From contig OZ316775.1 in assembly GCA_973851085.1 (NCBI GenBank), positions 11,594,001 to 11,658,000 of the forward strand: a DNA stretch of 64,000 nucleotides, read 5' to 3'. Shown piece by piece: positions 5,361-50,800 of this stretch (position 1 is its first letter; each line of letters starts with the position of its first letter). The translations under genes were made by a program, and so were the position numbers. The stretch comes from Ptychomitrium polyphyllum (lineage: Eukaryota). The notes beneath the pieces were generated by a model, which worked only from the letters and a program-made list of their open reading frames with translations, made no database searches and had not been told where the DNA came from.

Positions 5361-6018
5361 TGTTAGGGACACAAGAAACAAGGAGCAGAAACAAAGTGTT
5401 TTCCAAGAATTAGCTTCCAAAGAGCTAATGATTAACAAGAACTTGATACAAAGACTAGAACAAGGCAGGATTCAAGATGATCTACAACTTGTGTTGGCAA
5501 GACTAAGGAATACCTTGTCTTGCCTACTATGTGTACTGTGACGTTTGTATTCCCTAGGATACTTCTAAGGAAGCTTCCTACAAGACTTAAGAATGTTCAA
5601 GAAGTCTACAGAACCTTCTCAAGAAGTTTCTTAAGATATTGGAACCTTCCTAGGAAATTTCCTGAGATGGTGGAAGTTTCCTAGGAAGTTTCCTAAGATA
5701 ATGGAACCTTCCTAGGAAGTTTCCTAAGAAGTTACTTAAGATGATGGAAGCTTTCTAGGAAGTTTCTTAAGGTGGTAGAACTTTCCTAGGAAGTTTTCTA
5801 TAATGATGGAACCTTCCTAGGAAGTTTCCTAAGAAGTTACTTAAGATGGTGGAACCTTCCTATGAAGTTTTCTAAGGTAGAGGATCTTTCCCAGGAAGCT
5901 TCCTAGGAGCATGGAAATGCTATGGAGACATTTAAAAGGATTCTAAGAAGCTATTATAGTATACTAGAAGGTTCTAGAATGTTCTAAGGACTATATTGCA
6001 TGATATGTGTCCGTGACA
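5361..6018 (-). repeat. LTR (family copy 2), probable 5' LTR of the chromovirus
   Basis: TGTTAGGGAC...CCGTGACA with TG..CA ends. No TSD (CAAAC vs CCTTA). Same orientation as pol, about 0.4 kb upstream of gag, and abuts an 11-nt PBS-like complement. Confidence 0.8.
5966..5985. promoter_or_regulatory. Perfect 4-unit heat-shock element within the LTR
   Basis: AGAAG GTTCT AGAAT GTTCT = nGAAn nTTCn nGAAn nTTCn. Equivalent perfect HSEs at 4692-4711 and 10815-10834. Confidence 0.65.
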
Positions 6019-6081
6019 CCTTAGTCTTGCCAATACAAGTTATGGATTATATTGTATCCTGCATTGTTCTAGTTTTGTATT
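6019..6081 (+). repeat. Fragment of a related LTR in the opposite orientation
   Basis: CCTTAGTCTTGCCAATACAAGTTATGGAT...TTGTTCTAGTTTTGTAT aligns with about 12033-12096 of LTR copy 4. Confidence 0.65.
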
Positions 6082-6997
6082 TCTATTTGAAATATTAAGA
6101 ACATTTTCAAGAATTTAATAATTTCTTAAAGATCTCTAATAACTTGAAAATACTTATGAGAACTTTCCACAAGTTTCCAATAACTTCTAAAAGTTTTCCA
6201 GGAGCTCTTAGTAGCCTTTAAGAACCTTCAACCTCTCTCAGGAGTTTATTCATAAGGTTCCACGGACCTGTAGAACATTCTAGAACGTGAGAAAGAGGAA
6301 AGGAAGAGGCGAGAAAGCTGGAGAGGAGAGGACGGGAGGGAACTAGAGAATCCAACGAAACCTAGGGGAAAAGGGGAGAGAAGCACCGGAGCCAACGGGA
6401 GTCTTCCAGCCCAGACAGCGAGCGCAGAGAACGCTGCGAACGTGGTGACGGGCAGGGGCAACGGGCGCTCTCCGAGACGGCGCAATCTCATCGACTGCCG
6501 TGCCTCTGTAGGGCAGCGCCTTATGAAGCCGGTATAAAACGTCCCTCACACTGGCGGCTAATTTTAGTGTTTGCCCGTATTCGTCGCAGCCCCCTGGCGC
6601 CATTTTGCACTGGCATTGCGCACTGCTGTCCAAGGATCCCCCCGCCGTCTTGCCACGCACGCCATATTGCAACGACCCCGTGTGTACAACACCCCCCTCT
6701 CTCTTTCGCAGTTCCCTTGCTTACTGAAGCCCAGACGCTTTCCAGAGTTCTGTCCGTTGCATTGCCGTGGAGCTTTACTGCACTCACTTTTCTCCGCTCA
6801 CTGCAGTTGCTCCACTTCACTTCATTCACTCCATTTACTCTACTGCACTTACTCCACGTTGAGCGAGAGAGAAGTTTGGTTTCGTTTTCTACGAGTTGTG
6901 TAATGTGGGAGTACTTGTTTTGGTTACTTGAAGTCTTTTGAGCAAGCGAGCGAGCGAGGGAGGGAGGTTGGAGGCTGGCTAGTTTGGAGATCTGGTT

Positions 6998-8361
6998 ATG
7001 GCGGAGGGAGCGTCTTCCTCGGGGAGTTGTGAGTTTCAGTGGGGGGCCAAGGTGAGAGATTCAGAGAACAGCTACGAGCGCATGTGCTTCAATGACGTTT
7101 GGTATAGTTTGTACGATTGTGTGGGTGTGAGATCAGATGCGGAGAAGCCGCATGTTGGGAAGTTGATGAGGCTGTATGAGGAGGATGGGGTGAGGAAGGT
7201 CCGAGTGAGGTGGTTTTTGAAGCGGTTCGAGCTCCCTGTGGCGGTGGCCAAGAAGGTTTCTGGGACAAACGAGAAGGAGGTCTTCATCGCGCAAGGCGGC
7301 ATGAAGGGAGTGGAGAACGTGAATCTGCTGGTGAGCTCACTGGCTCTTGAGATTCATTATTCGGTTTTTTTCGTTGTTTTTTCGTTGTGTTTGGGAGGAG
7401 CTGTTGTTTCATTACATGCATTTGTAGAGGTCTTGTCCATGGAGGCAAGAAGATTAGGCGAAGCTTCATTGTTGGGAGAGTTAGGTTGACAGTGGCTCTG
7501 GTTTCTATCAATATTTTTTGCTAGCTTCCGTTCTCTCATGCGCTACTTTCTTTGTGCAGGAAACCATTGTTGGGAAGATTACTGTGCTTTGCACAGCTCG
7601 ATGTCCGAGAAATCCGCAGCCCACTAAGCTGCATGTGGATGAGGCGGATTACGTCTTCAACAAAGTTTACGACGCGAAGCAGCAGAAGCTCGTGAGCTTG
7701 GAGCAGTTCGAGAGGACAGAGAAGTCTCTTGGTAAGTGACACTCCTCCATGTTCAACAAAGTTTTGGTGCCTTGCCCTCTGTGATGTGTTTTCCTTGTAC
7801 CAAAACGGCGTCTAATGTCGTTTCGTGTGATGATTCTGTTCCCGATGTCACTGCATAGTGGGAGCGTTCAGTTTGTTTTTGTTCTAAAGGACTTGAACAT
7901 GTCTGAGCAGCATTCATACATTTGGTAGTTCTATGATTAGGCTGTGTGCTAATCCTTTAACTAATTTGCGTGCAGCTCTGAAGCTGTTTAACAAGTTGGA
8001 GAACTCTACTATCGATAGTTGATGTAAAGTTTTAGAGTGTTCGCTTTTTTGTTCAGTCACTGTTGTCGTGCCTTCTGCAATATGAGCTAGGGAACCTTTT
8101 CCATTTGGTTGCTCTATGATTGGGTTGTTTGCTAATTTGTAATGTGATTTGTGTACAGCTTCTAAGTTCTTCAATAAGATCGAGTGGCTCTTAGCACCGG
8201 TACCTGAAAAGGCAACCTATGAAGACCTCAGATCCCCAACTTCGGTGGCGGACTTCGAAATGGTGGAGGCCAGGAAGCGGCTTTCGTTAGACGCTGGGGA
8301 GTCTGAAGATCTTGAGGAAACTAAATTCAAGAAATTTAAGATGATCGAGGGAGGTTTGTAG
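6998..8361 (+). CDS. BAH-domain protein, ASI1/IBM2/SG1-like N-terminus (~235 aa)
   Basis: Exons 6998-7330, 7560-7731, 8159-8361 with GT-AG in phase. FQWG..YERMCFNDVWYSLYDCV..KPHVGKLMRLYEE..KVRVRWF..EVFIAQG..GVENVNLLETIVGKITVLCTA..RNPQP..ADYVF resembles plant BAH/ASI1 proteins. TATAAAA at 6533-6539. A fourth exon at 8417-8559 is possible. Confidence 0.8.
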
Positions 8362-10031
8362 AGTTTCTCCACAGAAATCGCTGGTTCCCATCTTCCACAT
8401 CTTCCTCATCTTGCAGCATCGTACCACTGTATTTTTTCTCGAGATGGCAACGTTGTGATGCTCCAATTGCAAAAATATGTAGAAAGAATGCTGTTCTACT
8501 GCGAGCGACACATGGCTGTAGTCCTGGAAGATAACCCAACGAAGAATACCCTCGAGTGAGCCCGTCCGCCGATCCAGTTCGACCGTGACGATCTGCCATT
8601 TTTCCCTCAAGGAGCATCGACAGGCTGAAGAATTCGTATGATGTGGCTCAAAGACGGTTCTAGAAGTTTGTTTCTAGGGTCCTGGTTTTTGACTCTGCCT
8701 CTTGATTCCAGTTCTCAGTTACCCCATGCACTAGAATTAGAATCATTCACAAATGTGGCATGAGCCAATGAATGACACAATTTTCTGGTGAAGTGGAGAA
8801 AGGTTTCTAATACACCACCAGTCGAGCACATTACTGCTGGTCGACCGTTTTTGTCAAAACTTGGGAAAGAGGCTTTCAGAACTGTTCCATCTTTGCGAAC
8901 AGTAAAACGTAACGAACGTTGAGTTAACTGGAGATTTGAATCTCATGCTTCCGTGCATTGTGCTTGACTTGGCAATCTGTGCTCGTTTGTAATTCATCGT
9001 GTATGCTTGCGGTGCTTCTTGGGTTCCATGATTTTCTTTTTACGAGCGTTTGGTTATTGCAATGTTTGAAACGTTACAGGAACGTGAATATTTCGATAAC
9101 TCCGGATAACTTGGTGGTGAGTGGCGACATTATCTGCAGGATTTTAGTGAAGCTTATCCAAGGGATGCCGAGTGATCGACGTCAGTGGTCACGAGAATGA
9201 ATAGGCTGGCCCTGCAACTTGAAGAAATTTTTGCAGCAAAGCTTCTGAGCTCGCACATTTTCACGTAACTCCTTTACATTAAATGCCGTCACATTGATAG
9301 CTGTCTTGTGTATTAGGTTTTTGTTCGTAACATGGAAAAGAAACCTTGTAGTCCCATCATGTCCATCTGTCTATTCGCACTTTTAAAACTTATTTTTTAA
9401 TTGTTTGTTGTTTAGTTTTTAATTTTAAAACTTTTATAGTTGTATAAAAAATTGCATCAAATACCATCACACTCTTGATGTAATGGTTGCTTCACTCTTG
9501 TTTATTTTAAAGTGGTTTATATTTTGAATGCCTTTTAACTCCATGAATACAGTTATTGTTATAGCATTAATTATGTTATAAAAAAGAAATCAAACACTTC
9601 CAATACTAACTTCAAAGCAATTGAATTTGAAAAATTTAAAGGCAATTTTTTGAAGTCTTGGGATTTTGTCATTTAAAGTTGATGAACTCATTTCTATTAT
9701 AATAATGGATGCCACCTTAATATTTATTATAAAAAACTTGGTTCAAGAATGTAACAAAAATATGGTTTTAAAAAATAAATCTAATTGGATGTTGGTTGTG
9801 AAAGGACGTTATTGCCAAAGCCTAAGAATCACCAATAGAACAATTCACTCACCATTCAAATAATTAATAACCACTACTCAATGAATGTAGTTATCCAAAT
9901 TTCATTTAATGACCGCCGTGCACTAAGCATATATCTTTTACATATTTCTTTTTCAAAATTAGTATCAGCTTGTTTTCCATCACACTTCTACCACTTTATA
10001 AGCTCATTTGCAACCAATTTCAATTTATTCA

Positions 10032-10867
10032 TGTTAGGGATATAAGAATCAATAAGCAAAAACAAAATGTTTTCCAAGAATTAGCTTCCAAAGAGCTAAT
10101 GATCAACAAAAAATGATACAAAGACTAGAGCAAAGTAGGATACAAGGTGATTCACAAGTAGTGTTGGCAAGACTAAGGTACACCTTGTTTTGCCTCTTAT
10201 TTATACTACGACGCTTGTATCTACTAGGATACTTATAAAAAAACTTCTTATAGGGCTTAAGAATGTTCTAGAAGTCTATGGAATCTTCTTGAGAAGCTTC
10301 CAAAAAGTTGGAAGCTTCTTTGGAAATTTTCTAAGATGGTGGAATTTTCTTAGGAAGTTTTTTAAAGAAATATAATCTTCCTAGGAAATTTCATAAGGTA
10401 GTGGAACCTTCTTAGGAAGTTTCTTAAAATAGTGGAATCTTCCTATGAAGTTTCTTAGGTAGTAGAACCTTCTTAGGAAGTTTCTTAAGGTAGTAGAATC
10501 TTCCTAGGAAGTTTCTTAAGGTAATAGAACCTTCTTAAGAAGTTTTGTAAGGTAGTGGAACCTTCCTAGGAAATTTCCTATTGTAATGGAAGCTTCCTAG
10601 GAAAATTCCTAAAATAATGGAGCCTTCCAAGGAAATTTTGTAAGGTGGTGGAACCTTCTTATGAAGTTTTCTATTGTAATGGAAGCTTTTGAAAGTAATG
10701 GAACCTTCCAAGGAAGTTTCATAAGGTAATGGAACCTTTTTAGGAAATTTCTCAAGGTGGTGGAATCGGCTATGGAGACATTGAAAGTAATCTAAGAAGT
10801 TACTATAATATACTAGAAGCTTCTGGAAGGTTCTAAAGACTATGTTGTATGATTTATGTCTATGATA
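10032..10867 (-). mobile_element. Solo LTR (family copy 3) with expanded internal tandem array
   Basis: TGTTAGGGA...CTATGATA, homologous to the other copies. Many ~31-bp GGAACCTTCCTAGGAAGTTTC-type units. Flanks ATTCA/ATTAC are only a degenerate TSD. Confidence 0.8.
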
Positions 10868-11671
10868 ATTACCACAACTTATAAAGCTTTGACCATTAAC
10901 AACAAGAATTTGGTGCTTAATGATGATGTACATGGTGATTTTTTTGTTTTTTAAGTAGCTGACATCTACAGATTTTATTTATGTATTCCAATAGTACTGG
11001 AGTATACAATTGACAATTTAACTTCAAATATAATGGTATTCTACAATTGCAAGCCAAATTAGCTTCATAAATCCTTCATTTTCAAAATTAACTTCAACTC
11101 CTTTGATTCTTTATTTAAAAATAAATTTTCTTTTATTGGATGATTTTTAGTCTTCTAAAAGGATTCAATGTCACTTTTATAGAACTTGATAAAATGTTTA
11201 TTACAATTTTGGAATTATATGTTTTCTATAAAATAATTATGTAGCTTTTTTGTATGCACTAATGGTTTTTATATGCTTAATTAAGTTCAAGTACAAAAAT
11301 AATTTCATTATGATTATTAAAATTACATTTAATTAGTGATTTATGAAAATTGCTTAAATACCATACATAATATTGAAATTTTGATTGTAGTAAGTACCAG
11401 TTTTTTGAAATAATACTTCAACAAGTCTTTAATGTTGCCTTGTTATATCCATAAAAATCACAACGCTATAAAAAAAAATGATTGCAAAAAATCAAATGAA
11501 TAATATATTAAAAATCCAAATTAATCATTTTATGGATGTTTAATTTTATAAGATTACATATAAACTAAAAAACTTGTTTTATGATTATAAATGTTATAAT
11601 ATTCTTTTATAACTTCCTTCATTTGCTCATTTTTTATTTAAAAATAAATTGCTTTATTACAACCTTTATTC

Positions 11672-12180
11672 TGTCACGGACATAGGTCATGCAACATAAT
11701 CCTTAGAACATTGTAGAAACCTTTTAGTATACTATAATAGCTTCTTAGAATACTTTTAGATGTCTCCATAATCTTTCCATGTTCTTAGGAAGTTTCCTAG
11801 GAAAGTTCCCCTATTTTAAAAAACTTCCTAGGAAGGTTCTGCTACCTTAGGAAACTTCCAAGGAAGGTTTCAACTCCTTGGAAGACTCTTAGGAAGGTTC
11901 CAACATCTTAGGAAACTTCTTGGAAGGTTCCCTAGACTTCTAGAATATTCTTAAGCCTTGTAGAAAGCTTCTTTAGAAGTATCCTAGGAAATATAAACGT
12001 TATAGTATAAATAGGAAGCAAGACAAGGTATTCCTTAGTCTTACCAATACAAGTTGTGGATCATCTTGAATCCTGTCTTGTTCTAGTCTTTGTATCAAGT
12101 TCTTGTTAATCATTAGCTCTTTGGAAGCTAATTCTTTGGAAACACTTCGTTTTTGCTTTTTGTTTCTTGTGTCCCTAATA
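11672..12180 (+). mobile_element. Solo LTR (family copy 4)
   Basis: TGTCACGGAC...GTCCCTAATA (CA>TA end). Perfect 5-bp TSD TATTC at 11667-11671 and 12181-12185. TATAAATAGG at 12006-12015 defines the orientation. Confidence 0.92.
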
Positions 12181-13735: not shown

Positions 13736-14597
13736 ATGGCAACGAGGGCGGAGTTGGATCGGAGGGCGCGTGAAGGCGAAGTTGTTGTGCCGGGTGGAAC
13801 GGGCGGACATACCTTGGAAGCACAGGAGCATCTTGCTGAAGGTATAATGATCGTTTTTAGTCGTATGATGCTTTGATCTCTAACTCTTTCCTGACACGAG
13901 AGATTGATATGCTGCCATCCTTGACATGCGGTTTTTAATGCTAGATAAACTTTTATATCAGATCAAACAAAAGGTCAACGCCAAAAAAATTCTTAAACAT
14001 TTAAGCACATGCTAACAGGTCGCCATAAGGGAGGTGAAACAAGGGCTCATCAGCTGGGCCATGAAGGGTTCGTGGAAATGGGAAAGAAAGGGGGTTTGGC
14101 TAGCCATGGCGCTGATCCATATCAAGCTGCTGCAAAGCACGGCGTTCACATTGATGAGCACAAGTTTATGAATGAGATCTCGATTGAGGAGTTGGACAGG
14201 AGAGCCCGCGAGGGAGAAGTTCTTGTGCCGGGTGGAACTGGTGGATACAGCTTGGAAGCTCAGAAGCACCTTGCTGAAGGTCATCACAAAACTTTCTGCT
14301 GCAAACTTCGTGCTTCCTTTTTGAAATTTAATTTTCCGATGCTCTTTTAACTTTTTGCTGATTAGTGTGAAACCAGAACTTACTTCTGTTCCAGTTTTTG
14401 TACCAGCCAGGTCATTCTAGCTTTCACTACGGTCATCCAAATACCGTAATGAAACGGAAGTTTAGATTTGTTGGCATTCTCATCGTGGTGTGTGTACACT
14501 TTCAAAAACAGGTCGCCACAAGGGAGGTGTGACCAGGGCACATCAGCTTGGCCATGAAGGTTATGTCGAAATAGGAAGGAAGGGAGGACAAGCATAA
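13736..14597 (+). CDS. Group 1 LEA (Em-like, LEA_5) protein with two tandem Em units
   Basis: Exons 13736-13841, 14019-14279, 14512-14597. The motif [50 protein letters not shown] occurs twice. Confidence 0.88.
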
Positions 14598-16335: not shown

Positions 16336-16884
16336 ATGGCGTCCGTTGTCGCCGCCTGCAGTGTGGTGGCCCCTGCTGCCTTCGCTGCAGCTTCATCTGC
16401 CGTGTCGACCTCGGACTCGAGCTCCGTGAGGGCCTTCTCCGGCCTCAAGGGCGCCACCCTGTTCGCCGCCAAGGGGCGGAGCTTGAGCTCGGTGCAGAAT
16501 GGCAGCCGCGTGCAGTGTATGCAGGTGTGGAACCCCATCGCCAAGACCAAGTTCGAGACCTTCTCGTACCTGCCCGCCCTGACGGACGACCAGATCGCCA
16601 AGCAGGTGGACTACATGATCCAGCAGAAGCTCATCCCGTGCCTGGAGTTCGACGTGAACGCGCAGGGGGTGTCGCGCGAGAACAACCAGAGCCCCGGGTA
16701 CTACGACGGGCGGTACTGGACGATGTGGAAGCTGCCGATGTTCGGGTGCAACGACCCCGCCCAGGTGCTGCGCGAGATCGAGGAGTGCAAGAAGGAGTAC
16801 CCAAGCTGCTTCGTGCGCGTGCTGGGCTTCGACAACGTGAAGCAGGTGCAGATCTGCGGGTTCTTGGTCGCCAGGCCCACTTAA
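16336..16884 (+). CDS. rbcS: Rubisco small subunit precursor (intronless), copy 1
   Basis: Transit peptide ending [52 protein letters not shown]. Confidence 0.98.
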
Positions 16885-18928: not shown

Positions 18929-19480
18929 ATGGCGTCCATTGTCGCTGCCTGCAGTGTGGTGGCCCCTGCTGCCTTCGCTGCAGCTTCATCTGCCGTGTCG
19001 ACCTCGGACTCGAGCTCCGTGAGGGCCTTCTCCGGCCTCAAGGGCGCCACCCTGTTCGCCGCCAAGGGGCGGAGCTTGAGCTCGGTGCAGAATGGCAGCC
19101 GCGTGCAGTGCATGCAGGTGTGGAACCCCATCGCCAAGACCAAGTTCGAGACCTTCTCGTACCTGCCCGCCCTGACGGACGACCAGATCGCCAAGCAGGT
19201 GGACTACATGATCCAGCAGAAGCTCATCCCGTGCCTGGAGTTCGACGTGAACGCGCAGGGGGTGTCGCGCGAGAACAACCAGAGCCCCGGGTACTACGAC
19301 GGGCGGTACTGGACGATGTGGAAGCTGCCGATGTTCGGGTGCAACGACCCCGCCCAGGTGCTGCGCGAGATCGAGGAGTGCAAGAAGGAGTACCCAAGCT
19401 GCTTCGTGCGCGTGCTGGGCTTCGACAACGTGAAGCAGGTGCAGATCTGCGGGTTCTTGGTCGCCGGCCCAACTAAGTGA
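18929..19480 (+). CDS. rbcS: Rubisco small subunit precursor (intronless), copy 2
   Basis: Near-identical to copy 1 with C-terminus AGPTK. Reverse I-box-like CCTTATC near 18803. Possible 5'UTR acceptor TGTGCAG ending at 18898. Confidence 0.97.
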
Positions 19481-35853: not shown

Positions 35854-37445
35854 TTATTTCTTCTCTTCCTTCTCCGCAGCCTCAGCCTTTTTCTTTCGGA
35901 CACCAACCAACCTCTCGTTAGTTCTCTCCTGACGCAGCTTGTAGTATCCCTTCTGTGCCTTCATCTCGTCAGTGATGGAGACGATCTCTGCAGAAGGCCT
36001 TGGCTTTATAATAGGCAGAACAGCACCAGAGAATTGGGTTACGCTAGACAATTCCTCAGCAGATGCGTCTCCAGCCTGCGAAAGTGCACGAGAACAATCA
36101 GAAGCAAGCAGATTAAGAGCAGACTACAGAAAAAGAGCAAGAAATTATTTAAAACCTCGCCAAAGGATGAGTAAAATTATTAACGGGACTGTACTAATCA
36201 ACGCGTTATTGAACTAATGATTCAGATCTCCGTGTTCATATTCACAATTATGTATCAATTCGCCCAACTACAACTGTATGAAACGACTTCACTACAAAGG
36301 TTCCAGTTTATGATTACTGATATGGCAGAAGAATTCAATACTAAATCATCCACCGCATGACGATGAAATCTTTGCAGATTTACTATATTATTATGATGTA
36401 TATGTACCTTGGTCTTTCGGGAGCGTCTTGGGAAGACCACCAACTTAGCCCTGTAGGTGTTAAGCCGGTTCACATTCTCTTGAAGGCTCTCCAAGCACCG
36501 GTTCTTGCGCCTATGATCGACAGCGATACCGATTGTAGGTGCGAGCTTCTTGGAGATTCCTGCAGCCTGAAGCCGGAACTTTAATTGTTAGAGCTTGAGC
36601 AAAAACCCAACAATCAGAACTTTTCCGTATGATGATATCTGTACAGATACGGTTCATATACTGCGAGACCAAGCAATCGTGATTGATACAGTTCACTAAA
36701 TAATACAGGTCATTAATGTCACGAAGCAATCAAAACAATCAAAAACAATAATTCCGAGAGATGTCAATACCTTCAACTCTTCCAAAGTGAAACCACGTCC
36801 AGCACGAATCTTAGCGTTATACCTCAAGGTTTGAGAGTGAACAACAGGGCGAAGAGGGCCGGCAGTAGGTCGGGGGAAGACAGCTACAGCCTTCTTCTGA
36901 CGCACTGCATTCACCAGATCCAATTCAGTATATCGTAAGCTCATCTATTTCAGACAATGAACCACCCGACCATCTTTTCACGATGATAGATTTCCGTAGA
37001 AAACCACGACAAAACATACACTCCAACCGTGAAGTCTATTAAAAGTTAACAAATGCACCTCAGACCAGCAGTACAACCTAGGTGATTATCACGCATAACC
37101 CAATGCGCGTAACACCAGTTCAATGACACGACAGCTAAAGCTCACATCCAGGTCTAACTCCGAACACGTAGTTTAACACATAATCACTCCTCTACACCCT
37201 AGGAATGCCCTAGGGTTTGTGCAACCTTCGCCATTTCAGTTCCCTGCCGACAATGCGAAAGATCCGAAGTGCACCCCAACCTCCCAAACACCCTAATAGA
37301 CTCTCTCCGAAGCGCAAAGAGCAAAGCCATCCATACCCGTTCTTCTTCTCTTCTTGCGGGCGGGCTGGTTGAACCACGTCCTCACATAGGACTGCCAGTC
37401 CTTCTTGAAATGCCCGTTGGGGATGACATTGTTATGCTTCACCAT
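35854..37445 (-). CDS. RPL13: 60S ribosomal protein L13 (eL13)
   Basis: Exons 37445-37337, 36904-36771, 36566-36408, 36075-35854. [82 protein letters not shown]. 5'UTR intron with donor near 37722. Confidence 0.97.
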
Positions 37446-37784
37446 GACTCCAGCCCTGTATCATTAAAAACCCTGAATTTAGTGGTACCTCACCCAAGAG
37501 AGATATCTAAAGAGCAGAGAGAAGACAAGAGAACTAAGAAGCCATGACCTCATTGGAGTCTCACCCTTTTACATGAGGACCCTGGATCCAACACACAACA
37601 ACAAAACTCGGTCACCTTCAACGTGCTGTGGAGGTGCAGAAACGATAACGAGCTGCGATAACGAGCTCCTTAAAGACAGTCTTGGTGGGCAAGATGGTGG
37701 AATGATAGAGAAGGGATACTTACCTCGCAGATGCGCGAGTACGAGACGGAAGGGGTAGCGATGGCGATGGCGATTGCGAGCGAG

Positions 37785-37841
37785 GCCGGAAAAAGAGAGA
37801 ACTTCGCCACAGAGCTCGCGTCTTAGGGCGCCAAACCCTAA
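37785..37841 (-). promoter_or_regulatory. RPL13 promoter: telo-box and TOP-like pyrimidine tract
   Basis: AAACCCTAA at 37833-37841 and minus-strand TCTCTCTTTTTCC near 37800-37788. Both are typical of plant ribosomal protein genes. Confidence 0.55.
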
Positions 37842-40800
37842 CACGGACGGCTCAGATGCATCACCCATCTCACGCGCGGATGCATCGCTCTCGTCTGTTC
37901 TTTGCTTCCCGTTTCTCATCCCCTCTGACGAAGGCCAGAGTCGCTCTGCGAACTACCGTCTTACCATCAGTGTGAACAGAACCGACGTCATTTTTGCGTC
38001 TACGCCAAAAAATCCGCGTTATTTCCGCGCTTCGTAGATTTCAGAGAAGCAAGCTTTGGTTGGTGGTAGATGATAGCGGATTTGTGGGTGGTGACGGCTT
38101 TGTGTATGTATTTGTATCTGTATCAATGATCAGAGTTTGTTCAACACTATCTATATGTACCTACGTATTGTGGATGAGAGTTGTTTTCTTTTGTTTGGGG
38201 CACTATCAACAATTTTGACGCCACTATGGCTGAATTTTGTAATGCCGGAAAGCTCTCAATAGGGTCAAGTGCACATTGGTAGTTTCAGAACCTTCCAGAC
38301 GTCATTGTGGCAAATATTGAATTTCAAATTATTTTCATTTCAAATTATCAAAAATTTGGATAAGTGTAATATATTAATGTTTTTCCATGGATTTGTACCA
38401 CAAAGCAACTAGTATGGTTAAATCAATGGCATATATCATAGTGGTAGGAAATCAAGAAAGTTGGAAGAACAAAGATCAATTTATCCTTCATAGAATTGGT
38501 GCAAATGAAGAATTTGTTTCTACTAGGCCTTGTATTTATGCCTACATGATATAGGTAGATGACCTAAAAGTACCAACATCTTGATGAAAATTAAAAAAAA
38601 GGATAGAATGAGGTACTATAATTACCATCAATAAGTTTTGAATACCTTCTTGTAAAGCCTTGATGGTGGCATCTTTAAACTCAAGTTCCTCCATATACTA
38701 TTCAATATTCTTGAATTGGATATTTGGCATCACTTCATTGTTTGGATTAGAAGATGTAGGTTGAATAGGATCATCTTCACTTAAAACATTAAAATATTGA
38801 GTTAATTCTTCTTGGTTGTTTACATCCATTGAAGTAACGTCCTATATAACAAATACAATAATGGACACTACTCTTGCTCATTTTTGAGTTCTATAACCTA
38901 TTAATTGCCTACTAAATCTTTGTGCTAGAAACCTATAATCCATGGAAAGGGCTTGCATTTGAAGTGCTTCATCTTTGCTTGATTTAAATGATTAAGAGAG
39001 ATTTGAAGGAACATTTATCTCTTTAATTAATTTTACTTTTATATCATTTAAACCACCATTAGGAAATAACATTAGACTGCAAGAAATGGTGGAGTAATTT
39101 GGTCGTTCAATATTTTTGGACTTTGGCATGGAGGTCCAATGTACTTCTTTGCTTAAAATAATCTTGGCATACACCATCTAAGATGACGTGCTATTATATA
39201 ACCGGTGAGCAGTGAGTAATGGCTAGTGATTCTAAAATTTAGAAAAAAGTAATGCCCATGACCGTGAAATTATGAATCCAAAATTTTATAAAAGTAAAAC
39301 AATTCAAATGCCATGTGCAAAAGGGATATGTAAATGAAATAGTCAAACATCCTACAACTATGGAAGATATTTGTAGTCATCAAAGCAAGATTTTATTACC
39401 ACAATTAATTATTATCATCTAACAATGTCAATGCTAGATTTCATTCAATAATGAATGTTTGTAGGAGCGGAATACTATCAAAAATAGCAAGTAATTTTTA
39501 TTAATAGACAGCATGCCACATTACAATTTCTTATTTTTGTTCAACATTGTACTAATGGACCTTATTTTAAGTTATTGTAGAATTCCAAAGAATATTATTT
39601 ATTTATTTTTGAGTTTATTTTACTAAATACGAGTTAACAACTTTCAAATTCTTCAACACTTAGATTCTTTGTTTACTTGGCATCATTAGCTAAATTCTTC
39701 TAAACCTTACTGTTTATACAAAATGTTAAGGAATAAAGATTTTGCTTCTAAATAGGCCTTGTCTCCAATGGAGTTGCCACGTAGAACAATAAACTTTGTT
39801 GTATAGCCAAACATTTCTATTGCAAGCAATTTTTGTAGAATTTAGATTTTAATAGGTTTTAATTGTAGAATCAATGTCTACTAATATATGAATATCATGT
39901 GATGCTTTGATTGTTTTTACATTGCTTGTAATAATTCCAATCAAAAACATATTTTTATACTAAAACTTATCAAAGTTGATTCTTTAATTGAAATGTATAG
40001 TAAAGATAACAAGTATATTATTAGGAATTGTCAAGAAATAAAGCTTATATACATTCAAGTATAAGAAATCAAGAACATACTTAGAAATTAGAAACATTTG
40101 AGTAAAAAGAAAAAAAAAGAATTTTGCTGGCTATTTGCACGTATTTTAGCTTTTGTATTTCTAATAGAACTTCTTAGCTCTATTCGATAGAAAGTCTACA
40201 CAATGGTTATAAAAACTAATGGAATGATGAAACCTTATAGAAATTCTATTATTTCACATACATGGATTGCAACAAATTGCAACATCCATATTCATTTTAT
40301 ATGGATGAATGTATTAGTAGAGAACATAACCCGGCTCATTTTAAATTTGAAGAACTTGAAATTTGTCCTTCTTTTATGTGTAATACAATCAATTATTGAG
40401 CTAAAACAAATTGTTTCAACAACTGGTAAATTTCACATTGAATTCTAAGGTTTTACATATTGAAGTAGTGATTTGAAACTTATTACTTAAAAATTTAGTT
40501 GCACAATATTGATCAAAGTTCAATATTTGATAAAAACCAATTTAATGAGGTCAAAACTTATTTAAAGCTTTTCTATTTCTTCATGCCTCCTTATCTCAAA
40601 AATAGTAGTGTTGTCTATTATACTATGGCCCAAATTTATTCTGCAGCAAAACAAACTATCATAACAATAATAAAAGCGCAAATTCTAATTATGACTCATT
40701 TATACATTTTTGCAATATAATGTGCAATGAATATGGTCTTGCTTATTATATGTTGCAAGAATCTAATAAAAATAGAAGGCATTGTTATAATTATTTGAAG

Positions 40801-41672
40801 AATTGAATTCATTGGCCTTTTACAATAAAATGCTGAAAATTAATATAATAAACTAATATTCAAAAGTAGTGGAAGTTACATACTTCCATGTAATTTAAAA
40901 CCTAGATTGTTAGTAAAAAGGGAACAACCATTGGACCTCCTTTTTGACACCAACACAAAACATATTCATTTCAATCGCTCTTTAAAATTTGTATACTAAG
41001 CATCTTCAACTTTTTTGAAGCTTTAATTCCATATAGACTAGGATCAATCCTTTGTTCGTTCTAAAATCCATTTTTTTTAAAAAAAACTCAATTTTAGGCA
41101 ACAGAAAGGTTGCCAAAACAAACAAAGATCTTTGCAAGTAATAATAAGGCTTAATATAAAACTAAAGGAACAAAATAAAAAAATAAAAAAATACTAATAA
41201 AATAATATTGTATTATTGTATTGTATTATTGTAGATAGAAAAAAATATGGTAAGTAAGCTAGAAATTCAAATAAATTCCAAATTCAAAAATATAAGTTTA
41301 ATTTCATTCAAAATATTGACTAGGCTTAAATAAAACTGTTACTTTCTTTACGGTTACTACATTCCGTAGCTTCTACATCCAAAAATTATCTGGCACAAGT
41401 ACTATACAAATGAAGGACACAAGAAGGAGTTAAAGAAAGAACCACTTCAAAGGCTGCTACTATTTCTTTAGCATAAGAAGGTAGCATAAATGTAAATGGA
41501 GGGTTTAAATCCACATGCTAAAAAAGCAAAGGAACATGCAAGAAAAGCAGAACTTTCCGCAAGATAAAGGAAATAATTTAAGATTAATAAGAAGGTAGCC
41601 ATAAAATGCACAAACATGAAATAGATGGAGAAACAAAAACAAACTTATGCAAGCAATTTGATTGTATTTTGG

Positions 41673-42652
41673 CTATTTTGTGGGGCGTTGATTTAAAAAA
41701 GGATTATTCAAGATCTTCTTCTTTCTTGTAGTTGTAGGTGGAGGTTTTAGAGCATCCAAAGGCTTGAAGAGGGCCTCAAAGATAATAAAATCAAATTCAA
41801 AAGCAAGAATGTGTCGGTTGGTGGCTTGGCAAATATGGATACAAGCTCCTACAGTTATATAAGAAAGCAAGTTAAAAGTTAAAGACATGAAAACAATAAA
41901 GAAATATAGTGAAGGTATTAAAGAAAAATTGCCTAGAAATGCATCTATAGAAGCCTTCCAATTAAAGACTATGCCACTTGGTTTGAAGAAGCACTCAATG
42001 AACATTTATATGAATATTGGATCTTTTTCACAAATACCTAGTCATGGCATAATATCATGCATGAGTTGACTAAACAAAGTGGTCAGGTTAAACAAGGTGT
42101 CATTCTTGTTTAAGCTTTGAACTTCATCAACAAAGTTAAGATGCTCTTGCAAAAAGAACTGTGCTTGATTTGGTTCATTACAAATATAGATTTGAAATTT
42201 GAAGCATAGAGATTGCCAATACAAAATAAGAATTAAAAGTTGAAAATTCATATCAATGAAATTAAGCTAGAAAATGAAAAATGAAAATAATTCAAATACA
42301 TAATTATTCAAAGGGTTCTTTGCAAATGCTAAGAACAATTCTTTGATTCTCCACTAATTTCAAAATTGATAGAAAAAATATAAGTTGCCTGCTTCTTCCA
42401 CCTTACAGAGAACCAAGTGGTCATATCATTGATATGGAGAAGTAGCACTACGGTATTATTATGGAAATAAACATTAGAAAATTCAAAAACAAATTCTATA
42501 TACTTCACAAATTGTGAATTCCAATTAGGAATTACAAATGGAAGCTGCTAGATTCTAAAAATGGATAGATTTTTGGAAATGTTGGTAATAAAGAGGTCAA
42601 TGCCAAAATTTCTACACTACTCTCATGATACAATGGCGTTAGCTCTTTCCAA
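41673..42652 (-). pseudogene. Remnant of an intron-containing beta-class N4/N6 (amino) DNA methyltransferase-like gene inside the retroelement
   Basis: IDLFITNIS..PNWN..YIEFVFEFSNVYFHNNTVVLLLH (42601-42432; motif IV-VI-like), then CEKDPIFI*MFIECFFKPSGIVFNWKASIG|ACIHICQATNRHILAFEFD after removing a 96-nt T-rich intron at 41944-41849 (motif X-I-II-like). Confidence 0.6.
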
Positions 42653-45600
42653 CTTAAAAAATTGAAATGGTATGAAAATCAAAGAAATTTAAGCTAGTAA
42701 AAAATTAAATTTTAAATAAGAATGAAAAGCAAATGAAGAACAATATCTTGGTAATAACTCTTGAATTTGAGTCCAAAGACGGTCTAGACTAAAAGGTTGT
42801 TCCAAAGTCTTTATAATTACAAAAAATGAAGATTTTGAATAAAAAAATGTGATGGAAGGATCAAATCTGATAAAATAAATGATGCAGGAACTTGATGTTG
42901 TTTCTTCCTTAGCAGAACCTCCAAAGTAGTCTACAAAACATTGAAAGAGAAAGGGTCCATATCTGGAAGATCATTGTTATTAAAGTGAATGATGGCTCTG
43001 TCTACAGTACAATCTTTCTACAAACTTCTATAATTGCCTTCTTGCATACTATCTTAGAAATTTTGTTTTCCTTTTGAAAAAAAGGAGTACTTTCAAAGAT
43101 AATAAAAAGAAGTGCTTTAAGAAGGAGGTCATTAATTGCATAAATAGAATCCATGACAATAAAAACATTATCATCAAACAAACAATGGAGGCTAATTTCT
43201 TCATTAAGGATAAAGTTCAAAGGGCACTTTAGATACCACCTTGCAACTTCTAGATGTAGGCATGAAAACTTCTTTAGTTAATTGGCATTGAAAATGTACA
43301 TATTGGAAGAAGCTCGCATCTACGCAACAAAAAATGGTAGCAAGTTGTAGTGGATAACTGCATCTTTTTTTATAAGCTTGCACATGAAGTATCTATAAAA
43401 GAAAGGAAATACATTTTAAACAAAAAAACACTATGAAAGTCCAAACTAAAGATGTAGAAAAAATAGAAATGAGTTAGAAAAATTTATTTTGTAAATTACT
43501 CTTTTGCTAATTAATTCATCACTGGAGAAGTTGTCAAAGATGGAGCTCTTCAACAATGCCGACTCAATGCTATTTTGGAGGAAGGATTAAAATGCCTTTT
43601 AAAAAAATATAATATGCTACCTCTCCACATAGTCAGCTTGCTTCAAAATTCTTTAAGAAGCCACCTAGTTGATGGCAAGGGTTCCATTGTTGACTACTTC
43701 AAAGTGACTAAGAACACAATCTTTAAGCTGAAAAAGAGAAATATCAAAATTTAAATTGAAAATTAGTAAAGAAGAATGAAGTATTTGAAGATGTTAAAAA
43801 TTAGAAATATTTAGGCCCAAAAAAATACTTTGTTCAATCAAGCATCTAAAACATTCTATTGTAAAAGTGGCTGTTTTTGCACTTTTTTAATTATCATTTT
43901 TGGCTTTTTAAAATGGCTAAAGTAATGATTAATTTGCAATACAAAAGGATATAAGTTGCCACTTTAAGAAGCCAAAAATGATAATTGATCCAACTATGCT
44001 TGTTAGAAATAATTTTGTATTAAAGATCTCTAACTGCACTAAGTTGTTTGATAATACCTCCTTTACCAAATAGGAACCTAACAAGAGGGCATTAAATTTC
44101 TCTAGAAAAGCTAGCTTCTTTGCATTTTGCAGTAACACTAATATTTCAATGCAAAGTTTTTTAGTTTTATTCTTCCTATTAAAAGCTATTTTTTCTATGC
44201 CATAGAATAGCTTCCATATGTTGCGTACTTCTTTGCCTAATTTCATCCAATCCTTCCAAATGTTCCAAGCAGTCTATCAAAGATTAGCTAGTTGATAAAC
44301 AATTAGTATTGCAATGTAAAGATAAGGAACTTTAAATTCTTTAGGGAAGATAGCTTCAATGTCATAAACCAAAAAGAAGAGAGTAATTTAAGTGATGACC
44401 CTGAATATAGTCCTATAGGCCCACAATGCAGCTAGAAGCTTTACATTCCAATCCTTCTTGGAATCCTTTATTATCTTCTTCAAAATGTTGACTAGCGTCT
44501 AATTCACCATTTCTATATGGCCATTGGTTTGAGGGTGATAAGGAGTAGTTGTGTTATAGCTAATTTTAAATCTAGAGGTCATTTTTTCTATTATATTGTT
44601 CAAAAAGTGCCCACATCTATTACTAATTAGTATGCAAGGGCAACTCACGCTAGTAATGATTTAATCAAATAGAAATATGTTGCACTCTTGGCGTCATTGT
44701 TTTCAATTGCCTTGGCTTTTGCTTACTTAGTCAAATACTTTGTTGCCATTAAGACATGCATTACACCACTAGCAAAATTAGGGTGGACTTCCACTCTGCA
44801 ATCAATGCTTCACTTTTCAAAAGGAACTAGCGGTAACAATTGATAGAGAGACAAATTCATTCTAAAGTTGTTCCTTGCATACGGCTGGCAAGCATTGCAT
44901 TTTTTTGCATGAGCATGCACTCTCTGAAACAAGATGGACTAGTAATAGCTTGCCTTTAGGATCTTTTGGCTAGTAAGTTGACCAAAAAAGTGCCACCACA
45001 TATAGTATCATGGCATGCTATTAGGTTGCTTAAAATCTCAAGCATATTCCCACATTGTTTCAAAATACCATCTACTATTTAAAAATAGAATCTACCCTCT
45101 ACCAATATAAAATGCCTACTATTAATGCAAATTTTTTTCTTCTTATTTTTTATCAAGGCTAAAGGCATCTACTAGATAGCTAAGAATTTTGCAATGTGAG
45201 TATATTAAAGAAAATTTGTAAAAATGAAAAACAAGCTCTTTGCTAGAATCTCATCATTGATGGAATGTAAAGCTAATTTTATAGACAATCAAAACAAATG
45301 GTACGCCTACTTGTGCATCTTGCCACGTTTTTAATCTACAGTATAGTCAAATTTCTCAAGTAAAAGAATCTAGCGGAAAATCATGCCATTTGACTTTGAC
45401 TTGTTGTTTATGTACTTGATGACTATATGATCCACCAAAATTACCACTTGGCTCATTAAGAAGTAATGGCAATACTTCTTGGCAAAGGAAACCATGGCTA
45501 TACATTCCTACTTTGTAATGGTCTAGTTCCTCTTATTGCATTTAATAGCTTGTTAGCAAAAGCTACAAGTGGATGTTTATGATTTAGGCCCGTGGACTAA

Positions 45601-47831
45601 CATAAAGTACTATCAACTGTTACCACTAATGCATCACAATAGACATGAAATGGTAGGTTCTAATTAAAAGGTTTTACTGTAAAATAGGTTTGATGGTGTT
45701 AAAAGCTACATAGCATTTAAAAGTCCACTCAAACTTGACAACCTTCTTAATAAGATTGATAAGCAGAATGGAGGTAGAAGCATAATCTATCATAATGTCT
45801 TTATACTAATCCATGTGGCTTATGGCTCTTTCCATGCCCTTTGCATTAGTTAATGGAGCCAATTTGGTAATTACCTCTACCCTCTCTGAGTCTGACTCCT
45901 TATCTTTTATAAATACTATATATTCCAATAGGACACCTCAAATTATTGTTAGGTATAACTTTTTGGGATTTAAGGATTTAAGGATTTACCATGGTTTTGT
46001 GTAACAAGTTTAAAACGGCATGAATTATAATCTTCTAAAAAATAGTTGGAGCATTAGAGAGCCCAAAAGGCATTACCAGATAAATGAAAGTTTTCCAAGG
46101 CGTTGTAAATGTAGCCTTATAATAGTCCTTTAGAGCTACAGAAATTAAATTTACCTTTATTTTTCTTCACTAATACCATTGAGGAAACCTAATTAAAAAT
46201 CTCCACTACTTTGATGAAGCCAACTTCTAACAACTTTTTCAACTAAGCTTTAATTATTAGGAACAGGTTTGGATTCATTTTTTTTTTTTTTTTGCTTAAG
46301 TGATTTAGATCCTAGAATTAAGAGAATAGTATGTTGGATCACCTCAATAGAAATTTTCTACAAGCCTTTGTATAATCAAGCAAAGAAGTCATGAAATTCT
46401 TTTACTAGAATAGTTTGAGGAAGTTTAATAATAATCTCAACATTACAATAGTCACATCATCTTCATCTTACATCCCTTGCCTAATAGTGTTCTTTCTTCT
46501 TACATTAGCTATATGGATAGAATGTACAGACTTTATAATGACCACCAATAGATCAAGACTTACACTAATAAGATCCAAAATGACTACAATTTTATTTTTT
46601 GTCACTATTTAAGCATTTGCCATCTCTAATGTTCAAATGACAATTTTAACTACTTTGTTTGGAACCTTGGAGTTCAAAAGTGCATTAAATAAGTAGGCAT
46701 GACTTTTGTGGCATTTGCTATTCATGCTACACCTTCCAAACTTTTTTCTCTAAAATATAAACTTTGTTATATTTCTCTAATTTGCCTACCACTTTGTCCT
46801 GCTATTACTTATTATGTGATTATTTCAAAGGCCCTTGATTCACCTTGAGCCTTTGTGACTTCCTCTTCAAAATCTCAATTCTAAAAGAGAAGCAAAATAT
46901 AGAAATTGTTATTGACAAGTTTACTATGTTTGCTTCTCCCGTCTACAGAACCATTGTAAGAAGCTTTAAATGATTTATAAAGCCTATTAAAAGATAAAGT
47001 GTTTATCTTGAAATGTTTGTCAACTTTCTAAATAGTGGTGTAGATCTTGTAAGGCGAATGCAAATCACAAGGAATATGAAAGATTTTTGGATAATATTTC
47101 ACCATGTTAAATGTATTAAGAATTGAACATCCGTGGCATGCCATATCTATGTTAACAAATATTGCAAGGTTCTCATTATTGCTTGTTGCAATATACAATT
47201 TGAAGATCCTTATGCTTAAAGACAATTTTGGGAGAATTTTAGTTCCGTCATGGAAAACAATAGAATTTCTTGTGTCAATCTTTGGAATTTCATGGCAGAT
47301 AATGCCTAGGCAAAATGGACTGTCATTTGTCAAATCTATGATTTCAAAGACTCCATTGTTTTTATAGAAGGCAAAAAGAAAACTTGTCTCTATCATTAGA
47401 TACTAAACTTAGAGAAGTATTTCTAAAACTATATCAAATTTTCATTACAATTCCATTTTAAAAAACTTTGCAAAAGTTATAAAGATGCATGCACTTAAGA
47501 AGCGGGTGATATCAAATACCATGCCATTTGAAGTTGGCGGGCAAATTTAGAGACAGCTACATAAAAAGGAATGGCTGCCTTTCTGAGTGGCTTAATTTTT
47601 GGCATTTTTTCTATAGGCAGTGGAGCAGCCATATGATTCTTATAAGTTCCACTTTACAAAAACTATATCAAATTAACCTTCTTTATCATTTATTTTTTAT
47701 TAATTTCAATCCTAAATTTCTAAAGGGCCTTATTGTTGATCAAAGGGTAAAAATGGCTTTTTGCAATCTTGCAAAGATTATTCACCATAAGTAGCTTTTG
47801 CAATCTAATATTAAGATGATTTATTTCTACT

Positions 47832-47876
47832 AAAACTCTAACTCTAAACCCTAAATCCTAAACCCTAAACCTAAAC
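47832..47876. repeat. Degenerate plant telomere-like (CCCTAAA)n tract
   Basis: AAAACTCTAACTCTAAACCCTAAATCCTAAACCCTAAACCTAAAC. Confidence 0.7.
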
Positions 47877-50800
47877 TATTGAAGTTGGATAAAAGAAGGT
47901 TCCTTTAAAAAATGCTTAAATTATACCTTCCTCAAATTAAAGGGTGCTGTAGAAATTTGGGATTTTAAGGCTTTCTAGCAGGCTACAAAATACATTCTAA
48001 GTAGTGGTGATATCATAACTCATCTAGTTTCTTTACTAAGCATTAAGATTTATAGAACAACAAAGCAAAGTTGAATATGTCCTTTGGTTTGGAATTTGAC
48101 TTCCATAAGCATGATACGGTAATTATTCTATCCCCTGTCCAACGACAAGGTCAATAAAAGCACAAATTGAATAATGCTTTTAAAATTTGCTACTTTGAAT
48201 CACTCATACAACTGCTGTTTATAAAACAGATTGCAATGCAATAAGGTGGCAGACTGCTAGGCTTCCTAAGACTTATCGCAAGGTATGTTAAACACTACAA
48301 GTTACTATTAAAAAGCCTTGCAAGGCCACCATAAGTAAGGACCCCATAGCACTCTTTGTCCCACATTCTTTAGTAATTAGTTTGATTATCATTTAGAAAA
48401 GAAATTAAGGACAAAATTTTGTTTCCATCCTAACAATTGTCCATTGCTATGTTCAAGAGACCAAATTTAGCAATTATATTACTGACTTCTTTGCGTCTCC
48501 ATTACCTAATCAATGAAACTTTGGACAACCTTAATTGGAAAGAAGTACTTGCTTTATAAGATATTGGCTTCCAATTGCAGCACTGCAATACCCATCCTTA
48601 AATTCGAATTTTGTATTTCTAAAGCTTCCATGGCACCTCTAATATAATGACACAATAAGAAGGTTCATTGTACAAATAGTAATTCTATTACAAACCATAG
48701 GAAAATATGGAAGAGTACTACCCTCATAGACAATTGCTACATTATAAGGGTCATGGCCATCCTTCATCCAAGATATGATGCAATCATCACTCTTGTTTCC
48801 AACTCTGGCAAACTTACATTGTTAAAGTCACCACCCCTACCCTCTCTAATTACCTTGTTGTCTATACTTGGTCTAGCTAAATTCCCTTCAAATTCCAATT
48901 GCAAAATAAATGAAGCTTGAAGAAGGTTACAAATGCACGTGTATACTAACCATGTGAAAATGTGATAACCTTAGATGACAAGGAGATCATTTTTGAGTGC
49001 ACCTCCTCCTTCACCAAGGGGACCTCTTCACTCACTTTCTAGTATCAAGCACTGTAAGTGCAGGCCACTGATTCACAAGTGGGAGAGGCGAGTAACACAT
49101 GGGGGGCAGTGCTTATATACTGGGGTTGGTCCGCAATGGCGGATGGGTCTCCGTGCTGCAGATCGGTCTTGGGGGGCACCGCGGATGATCCTCGACCACA
49201 GATGATGAATCGCGCGTCGACGTGTCGGGCTCTGGCAACTGTAGATGAGTGTCGCCGACTCGCCCCGACCGCGGATAAGAAGCTGTCGACCGCGATCGTG
49301 GCAAATTTTTGTTAACATTATTGTTTCTGGATATGTGCACTGAGTGAGGGACTCTGTTTGGTGCTATGAAAGTTTGTCATAGGCCCAAAGATGTTGAGGC
49401 AAGGCTGCGGACTGAGCACCTTCTGAAGTTGAAAATATCAAAACCTCCTGGTGTAATGGAAATGATTCTACTACGGTAAGAGCATGGGAAAGTCCTACAT
49501 GGCTCATTCGTGAACTTCACGGGATATGTTTTGGTAGCTTGCGCTACGCTTGGAACAGCTTGCTTACAGAAATGTAATGTTATAGCCCAAGTGCACTGAA
49601 CTGCGAATTCCAGCGATCGAATTACATTACTTACAAGTATTAGGTAGCATCCATATTTGAGTAAATTGTGCTCACTTATCAAGATCAGATTGGACGTACC
49701 AGTGCCTAAACGCCTTCTTATGCAGAGTCAGGACTGTGCTCAGAATCTGGCAAACTCTCCCTTGGGCACCCTGACTTGCTTCCACTGGAGGTAGTTGTTA
49801 TTTACAGTCCTTCGACGATGCTTGACCTCCCTAAAGCGGCGCTCTGCCCAGCTGCTTCAAAATATACCTTGATGTCCAACATGGTCACACTCCCTCAACA
49901 CAAGATTCCCAGGTTTGCCATTTTCCTTGCGCATTAGATGTGCACTTCTTAGGGTTCCAGCTTGTAGAACTTGAAAACGCCCTCTGCAAAGTTTCTTCCA
50001 ACCTGGTTGAACTCCTGTGTCGTGGGTTGCACCCGCCGGATTAAGACTGGCCGGCGTAATCAAGGAATTCATTGATCTGGAAGGTCATGGCCGTTCAGAG
50101 AGCACTACCACCTGTAGAAGATCAGAATGGATTTAAACTATCCTTATGTTCATATTTTTTCAAAATCCTCCTACGATTCTTAACCTTATGAGATGGCAGG
50201 GGCATCAACATATGATCCATGGATGGTGGAATTTAGCCCTAACCAGCTTCAGTTTAATGCGACTACCGCAGAAAAATTTACAGTCTTCAAGGTGCCTGAA
50301 AACCTTTAAGAGAGTTGTAATGACTATAACTTTAAGATTAAGATCCTGCAACTTGGGCTTCACAACCGGACAGACAAACCAGGCACACCAGAGAAGATCT
50401 TTTAGAACCTCAAACTTGAGATTGCCTTGGTTCTCCATCATGGGTTCAGCAACCTATCTGCAACTCCACTCTGGAACAAAATATTAGGATCGTAGGAGAA
50501 TTTTGCCAAAGTAATCGTGAACACCCGCCGTGTGAGTGGGGCATGAAGCAACTGAATAATCTGTTCTTGGAGAGTATACCAAGTGCCACACAATTGGAGG
50601 AGATTGGTATAAAAAGCAAAGCACTCAGCTCAATGCACAGGAAACAGTGTGGAGCTCAGTCATGGATATCACACTTGGATTCCCAGTGCAAGGTTAAAAC
50701 CGCCGAAAACGAAAATCCTCGACCAGACAGCTCGACACTTTCGCAACCTAACCAGCATGTGCAGCTCTTTGGACAAGCTATAAAACAGTACAACAATAAT

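What the first reader, a model, noticed from the sequence alone, without database searches (positions are those of the whole stretch)
41673..43930. Gypsy retrotransposon carrying a spliced N4-cytosine/N6-adenine DNA methyltransferase-like cargo gene
Seen: immediately 3' of the integrase, on the same strand, multi-exon coding remnants. Manual translation gives (i) IDLFITNISKNL..PFVIPNWN..YIEFVFEFSNVYFHNNTVVLLLH and, further on, (ii) SQLMHDIMP*LGICEKDPIFI*MFIECFFKPSGIVFNWKASIG|ACIHICQATNRHILAFEFD..IFEAL.KPL, joined across a 96-nt T-rich intron ending CTGTAG whose donor has decayed GT>AT. Established: beta-class amino-MTases (Pfam N6_N4_Mtase) run VDLIxTDPPY...LKxxG.I.. first, then KP..L...I...S.PGD.VLDPF.GSG.T..AA...R..IG.E.D. 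Both blocks match that order and spacing once G>A/C>T decay is reversed (NIS<DIP, HNN<HDD, PSG..VFN<PGD..VLD). Eukaryotic members of this fold are rare (bdelloid N4CMT, Marchantia DN4MT1). Inference: a moss LTR-element family encodes its own amino-MTase-like protein that could mark or protect its DNA, or counter host silencing. Caveats: this copy is dead, and motif IV (DIP-like) and motif I (WxASxG) are non-canonical, so the protein may be a non-catalytic or RNA-acting derivative.
Basis: partly seen in the sequence, partly recalled or inferred. Interest (0 to 1): 0.88.

Follow-up and report, generated by a model that had tools for sequence, protein, structure and literature searches.

The report
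Plant repeat gene with altered methylase
This is a broken, front-truncated copy of a spliced, repeated gene whose intact relatives are predicted to fold like bacterial DNA amino-methyltransferases but lack the usual catalytic motif; it lies directly behind a decayed Gypsy retrotransposon, likely through a one-off DNA break repair rather than as that element's cargo, and it likely belongs to a DNA-transposon accessory gene family so far reported only in algae.

Summary
The remnant has 34 relatives; a spliced relative's model matches beta-class amino-methyltransferases (CcrM Z 19.5). The intron position is shared by 41 of 43 loci, and median dN/dS is 0.16-0.29. The family is non-canonical: motif IV reads D-h-P-E-N/G, with PP[YFW] in 0 of 29 readable loci. 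The Gypsy-cargo claim is not supported. The window copy lacks at least three 5' exons present in relatives. 0 of 51 related loci carry pol. No other contig of the same sample crosses the integrase-gene junction. No LTR pair was found. The junction carries a 29-nt inverted duplication, as in foldback repair. Best reading: a decayed copy of a mobile accessory gene akin to the ParB-like/methylase genes of algal DNA transposons, likely a SAM- and DNA-binding pseudo-enzyme, joined by chance to a Gypsy remnant. Its transposase was not seen and the ParB call is unconfirmed. The scan noted a similar ParB/dead-methylase gene earlier in an animal genome.

The parts
43987..46700 (-). Decayed Ty3/Gypsy pol remnant (RT, RNase H, integrase in Gypsy order; protease region read by eye only); many stops and frameshifts; 5' limit approximate
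   Evidence: RVT_1 E 3.4e-4, RT_RNaseH E 1.5e-4, rve_3 E 0.05; E 4e-16 to a Gypsy polyprotein
43958..43986 (.). 29-nt inverted copy (93%) of 43889-43917, lying at the join between integrase and the gene fragment; likely foldback repair scar
   Evidence: pair I1; by far the most identical inverted pair listed in 38000-49100; repair origin inferred
43811..43933 (-). First surviving exon (fourth exon in the order of locus L004), shortened to 123 nt against 216; acceptor and donor decayed
   Evidence: (60% over 20 aa, E 3e-4)
43489..43727 (-). Next exon, part of the N-terminal region of unknown fold
   Evidence: (36% over 75 aa, E 2e-10)
42747..43392 (-). Long exon: conserved HL..WYL.C block, then a poorly conserved linker
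   Evidence: 3' boundary read by eye against L004
42300..42653 (-). Exon with motif IV region (42598-42566, here DLFITNISKNL; family D-h-P-E-N/G-L) and the HDD block
   Evidence: (42% over 69 aa, E 2e-13)
41945..42212 (-). Exon with the PWRGxxEKD block, motif X and the first part of motif I (41963-41945)
41849..41944 (-). 96-nt phase-1 intron inside motif I, donor decayed to AT
   Evidence: (same position in 41 of 43 loci)
41649..41848 (-). Exon with the end of motif I, the acidic residue after the next strand (AFE) and the C-terminal helix
   Evidence: (43% over 61 aa, E 2e-9)
41362..41505 (-).
   Evidence: match to L005; block shared among many loci

Best explanation
The stretch is the decayed rear part of a spliced, repeated gene whose intact relatives are predicted to end in a beta-class amino-methyltransferase fold with an altered catalytic motif, and which likely travels as an accessory gene of DNA transposons; it likely came to abut the Gypsy integrase through one deletion repaired by foldback synthesis, not through capture. 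Shown: exon order, truncation, conserved intron, purifying selection in relatives, motif IV D-h-P-E-N/G, the inverted duplication at the join. Predicted: the fold. Inferred mechanism: the protein keeps the SAM pocket (acidic residue and a glycine in motif I, glutamate after the next strand) but has lost the first proline and the aromatic residue that canonically stacks on the flipped base, so it most likely works as a SAM- and DNA-binding pseudo-enzyme (about 60 in 100; active enzyme about 30). Its N-terminal DGNHR-motif (ParB/Srx-like) domain would load it on the tandem arrays of its own element, shielding or marking them against host 5mC silencing.
For: Fold: Foldseek E 4.6e-12, VIA Z 19.5, rmsd 3.5 A over 235 residues to CcrM; the top 20 entries are all bacterial or bdelloid amino-MTases of this permuted type; collinear profile match to 22 bacterial beta MTases over 214 columns, E 5e-6, DLPE on DPPF/Y. 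Function kept in relatives: median dN/dS 0.16-0.29 on five exons, stops in 0-2 loci per exon. Repeated and silenced: many 80-95% contigs in the same sample; CG observed/expected 0.13-0.37 over 39000-49000 against 0.9 at 36000-38000. Mobile context: 8 of 24 loci with both flanks have matching tandem arrays on both sides of the gene, inverted in 3 (about four independent groups). Not cargo. Precedent: Ectocarpus Sola1-1 ParB-like plus N4/N6 MTase (PMC12477816, passages); Bostrychia PAG2/PAG3 with tandem arrays (bioRxiv 2025.02.11.637652, passages).
Against: No transposase was seen on any of 51 loci (contigs 1.1-5.7 kb), so the carrier is inferred. The ParB call rests on a DGNHR motif in 2 loci: Pfam, PHROGs and NCBIfam gave no ParB family, the model was unusable (pLDDT 40), and the profile match to chromosomal ParB was no better than shuffles. 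Homology to the algal proteins was not tested. Related loci come from other organisms at about 25-45% protein identity, so they say little about this genome's own family. The junction test sees only contigs at 80% identity or more from one sample, probably the source. Strict conservation of D-h-P-E also fits an active site of another chemistry.
Confidence: 0.6

Rival explanations
1. A Gypsy family captured the 3' part of the gene and carries it behind integrase.
For: Same strand, about 55 nt apart, equally CG-depleted. Methyltransferase capture by Gypsy elements is documented (PMC5890265 abstract; DAM-LTR preprint, results parts 1-2), and algal PAG genes move between TE families.
Against: Fragment starts inside an intron, with no start or first exons. 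9 of 9 loci that include the same exon have 300 nt or more upstream without pol, and 5 of the 9 have the gene's own upstream exons. In the same sample 10 of 11 (X1) and 9 of 9 (X2) contigs match only one side of the join, and no joint is listed. No LTR pair. An LTR element would be expected to lose introns over RNA cycles (general knowledge), yet six introns remain.
Confidence: 0.12
2. Same origin as the best explanation, but the family is an active amino-methyltransferase with a new motif IV that writes 4mC or 6mA on its own element.
For: Aspartate, one proline, the downstream tryptophan and the SAM-site acids are conserved; dN/dS 0.16 on the motif IV exon; P0059 is spliced and open.
Against: 0 of 29 readable loci and 0 of 5 long proteins have PP[YFW]. 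In bdelloid N4CMT, replacing SPPY by APPA abolishes activity (PMC8885841, passage). The first glycine of motif I is replaced in about 4 of 10 readable loci.
Confidence: 0.18
3. An expanded host gene family, of which this is a pseudogene caught in a repeat-rich block.
For: Purifying selection and conserved introns; no transposase found.
Against: Many divergent copies in one sample, strong CG/CHG loss, paired flanking arrays, and no named homologue among 15 clusters looked up other than 'hypothetical protein' (the one named cluster was the lipase).
Confidence: 0.1

Closest known systems
ParB-like plus N4C/N6A methyltransferase accessory gene of Ectocarpus Sola1-1_Ec32 (PMC12477816; passages read)
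   Same: Long protein with an N-terminal ParB-like region (here only a DGNHR motif) and an N4/N6-type MTase domain, in repeated DNA.
   Different: Host appears to be a land plant; motif IV is non-canonical here (the paper's passages give no motif); carrier transposase not seen; homology not tested.
Plavaka accessory genes PAG2 (PF01555 + SET) and PAG3 (ParB + 2OG oxygenase) of red algae (bioRxiv 10.1101/2025.02.11.637652; passages)
   Same: PF01555-like gene in repeats, next to tandem arrays, mobile between TE families.
   Different: No SET or 2OG domain found here; ParB-like motif and MTase are in one gene.
Beta-class amino-MTases CcrM, M.BceJIV, M.MboIIA, M.PvuII (PDB 6pbd, 9c3u, 1g60, 1boo)
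   Same: Predicted fold and permuted motif order (Z 17.9-19.5).
   Different: 11-19% identity; DPPY/SPPY replaced by D-h-P-E; below the Pfam cut-off (20.8 against 26.7 bits).
Bdelloid N4CMT (PMC8885841, passages) and Marchantia DN4MT1 (bioRxiv 2021.02.12.428880, passages)
   Same: Eukaryotic beta-class fold (8s9m Z 17.6).
   Different: Those have SPPY/TSPPY, are host genes and are shown active; this family lacks the motif and is repeated.
DAM-LTR (bioRxiv 10.64898/2026.05.21.726589; abstract and results parts 1-2) and Gypsy-DNMT3 retrotransposons (PMC5890265; abstract)
   Same: A methyltransferase beside Gypsy pol.
   Different: Other enzyme classes (NPP-motif DAM; C5 DNMT); the preprint states DAM-LTRs are absent from streptophytes; here the gene is spliced, truncated and not linked to pol in relatives.

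Membership tests
Beta-class amino-MTase (PF01555-like) fold | Permuted Rossmann core, motif IV before motifs X and I | tested here: met
   Model of relative P0059; profile alignment
Beta-class amino-MTase (PF01555) | Score above the Pfam gathering cut-off | tested here: not met
   P0059 20.8 bits against 26.7; 5 of 35 hits weak, E 8e-4 to 0.02; window pieces none
Active amino-MTases incl. N4CMT and DN4MT1 | Catalytic motif IV [DNS]PP[YFW] | tested here: not met
   0 of 29 readable loci; all D-h-P-[EI]-[NG]
Active amino-MTases | SAM-binding motif I (D/E-x-F-x-G-x-G) and acidic residue after the next strand | tested here: inconclusive
   D and last G kept; first G kept in DWQCG[VI]G types, S/A/T in others; F absent; E kept
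Active amino-MTases | Methyl transfer to N4-C or N6-A | not testable with these tools
   needs an assay
Ty3/Gypsy pol (neighbour) | RT, RNase H, integrase in that order | tested here: met
LTR-retrotransposon cargo gene | Lies inside an LTR pair | tested here: inconclusive
   No direct repeat pair found; old LTRs may have decayed
LTR-retrotransposon cargo gene | Linkage to pol shared by other copies | tested here: not met
   0 of 51 loci; no second contig across the junction
DAM-LTR retrotransposons | DAM domain with Asn-Pro-Pro | tested here: not met
ParB-MTase transposon accessory genes (algal type) | N-terminal ParB/Srx-like domain | tested here: inconclusive
   DGNHR motif in L004 and L016; no library or fold support
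ParB-MTase transposon accessory genes (algal type) | Inside a DNA transposon with transposase and terminal repeats | tested here: inconclusive
   Paired tandem arrays in 8 of 24 loci; no transposase on short contigs or in window flanks
ParB-MTase transposon accessory genes (algal type) | Sequence homology to the Ectocarpus or Bostrychia proteins | not tested

The most novel reading that the evidence does not exclude
Land-plant transposons carry a widespread, conserved family of bacterial-type amino-methyltransferases with a new catalytic motif (D-h-P-E) that bind their own repeat arrays and write 4mC or 6mA there, a transposon-encoded counter to 5mC silencing and a second source of these marks in bryophytes.
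Probability: 0.2. Interest if true: 0.85.

Novelty: new variant of a known kind. Interest (0 to 1): 0.55.

Why it matters
Land plants are reported to have few amino-methyltransferases (PMC4738411, passage). A conserved, repeated family with this fold extends the algal 'transposon carries its own chromatin tool' theme to plants and gives testable candidates, either for a new catalytic motif or for a dead enzyme reused as a DNA-binding shield. This particular copy is dead and its Gypsy link is probably accidental, so the value lies in the family.

Tried and rejected
No whole genome is held, so linkage could not be counted genome-wide. Pfam on 8 window pieces, PDB sequence search and phage tblastn with the decayed pieces found no MTase; a word-based search for longer relatives found none. 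The AbiEi-like PDB hit of block (i) (E 0.005) was set aside because P0030 explains the block better. P0019 (lipase) was dropped from all alignments. L050, L052 and L053 are bacterial chance matches of the short pattern (L053 judged from its 9-residue match only); viral contigs gave 0 of 52. No RNA holder listed. The ESM Atlas gave no result. The ParB-exon model and its fold search were uninformative. A CACTA-like start at 38222 has no partner in the window at up to 3 mismatches. No missing 5' exon was found elsewhere in the window at E<0.5, so a simple Gypsy insertion into an intact gene is not supported. Six-frame Pfam scans of 46701-49003 and 38201-41403 found nothing credible. Paper searches that found no report of this family in bryophytes. 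bioRxiv supplements are closed, so the Bostrychia and DAM-LTR tables may list plant homologues that I could not see; Iyer 2011, cited by the Ectocarpus paper, was not read.

Full report
Observation. Both peptide blocks are on the minus strand as described, and a decayed Gypsy pol lies upstream on the same strand. The block 39000-49000 has CG observed/expected of 0.13-0.37, against about 0.9 at 36000-38000, as expected for long-methylated repeats. The decayed pieces alone hit no methyltransferase in Pfam, PDB or phage records.

The family. A full HMMER scan with block (ii) returned 35 proteins at E<=0.001; 34 share its motifs and one is an unrelated lipase. P0030 also matches block (i) at E 1e-9. 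A profile search added a spliced 596-residue member, P0059, and three more long ones. A pattern scan gave 51 loci, 50 of them real. In them the intron donor sits at the same codon in 41 of 43 loci with a readable motif I; five exons show median dN/dS 0.16-0.29 over 25-324 pairs, which are not independent.

Fold and motifs. The model of P0059 is confident mainly in residues 290-555. It matches CcrM (Foldseek E 4.6e-12; Z 19.5, rmsd 3.5 A, 235 residues), M.BceJIV, MboIIA, PvuII and bdelloid N4CMT above the METTL3/MTA1 group at Z 11.7-13.8. A profile of 6 long members aligns collinearly with 22 bacterial beta MTases, kept from 30 loci by motif pattern, over 214 columns at E 5e-6. Motif IV aligns as D-L-P-E on D-P-P-F/Y. 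Among the 29 of 51 loci where it could be read, all have D-h-P-[EI]-[NG] and none PP[YFW]. Motif I keeps the aspartate and last glycine; a little over half of 43 keep the first glycine. The score stays under the Pfam cut-off. It works like a beta-class SAM-binding fold; it fails the membership test for an active enzyme.

Anatomy of the window copy. Against L004, the window has six matching internal exons from 43933 to 41649 and a further exon near 41505-41362 (the exon at 42212-41945 is matched through). At least three upstream exons, present together in L004 and in part in L016, L018, L028 and L029, are absent from the whole window at E<0.5. The first of them has a DGNHR motif recalled as typical of ParB/Srx domains, but no library, model or profile test confirmed this. 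Most splice sites have decayed by transition.

The link to Gypsy. 0 of 51 loci match Gypsy polyproteins or the window's own pol. Most contigs are short, but 9 include the first surviving exon with 300 nt or more upstream, where the window has integrase at about 55 nt; none has pol and 5 have the gene's own exons. In two runs of one sample, likely the source, only the identical contig spans 43720-44260; 10 of 11 and 9 of 9 contigs fit one side and run on with other letters, and no joint is listed. This sees only copies at 80% identity or more. No LTR pair was found. At the join, 43958-43986 is a 93% inverted copy of 43889-43917. Short templated inverted duplications made by foldback at double-strand breaks are described in yeast (PMC11724301, start of abstract in the listing). 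I infer one deletion that removed the element's end and the gene's front.

What carries the gene. The gene region has many 80-95% relatives in the same sample (summed depth is no copy number). In 8 of 24 loci with both flanks the same tandem array lies on both sides, inverted in 3. No transposase was seen. Published parallels: a 1104-residue ParB-like plus N4/N6 MTase gene in an Ectocarpus Sola element, and PF01555 and ParB accessory genes beside tandem arrays in red algal Plavaka elements. Plavaka transposases are reported in moss (PMC13519894, passage).

Mechanism. Shown: truncation, conserved splicing, selection, altered motif IV. Predicted: fold. Inferred: a SAM- and DNA-binding accessory protein, more likely catalytically impaired (about 60 in 100) than active (about 30), that binds its element's arrays and limits silencing. 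METTL14 is a known case of a disrupted motif in this group (PMC4738411, section 8).

Verdict. A new variant of a known kind: an algal-type transposon accessory methylase-fold gene, apparently in a land plant and with a distinct motif, not found in print in searches. The headline claim of Gypsy cargo has about 12 in 100. Interest 0.55.

Noticed in passing
window 4193-12178: Three direct copies and one inverted copy of a repeat with internal 31-bp tandem arrays, 63-90% alike; looks like a non-autonomous element.
   Followed up: no
window 16336-16635 and 18929-19228: 300-nt direct repeat, 99% identical, 2.6 kb apart; a recent duplication or a small LTR pair.
   Followed up: no
window 39700-40700: A much more repeated stretch behind the gene (summed contig depth about 900 against about 45 for the source contigs), with no Pfam match.
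   Followed up: partly
window 38201-38239: Two CACTA-starting stretches 21 nt apart at the edge of the CG-depleted block; no partner end found.
   Followed up: partly
window 47833-47876: Short degenerate AAACCCT array, plant-telomere-like (label recalled).
   Followed up: no
L019, L020, L026-L029, L031-L033, L036, L037: Tandem arrays of 73-128 bp units adjoin the gene; in L031, L033, L036, L037 and L019 the array lies where upstream exons are expected, so it is either intronic or marks a truncation.
   Followed up: partly
window 13743-14587: Repeated coding units 81-83% alike, resembling Em/LEA genes (name recalled).
   Followed up: no
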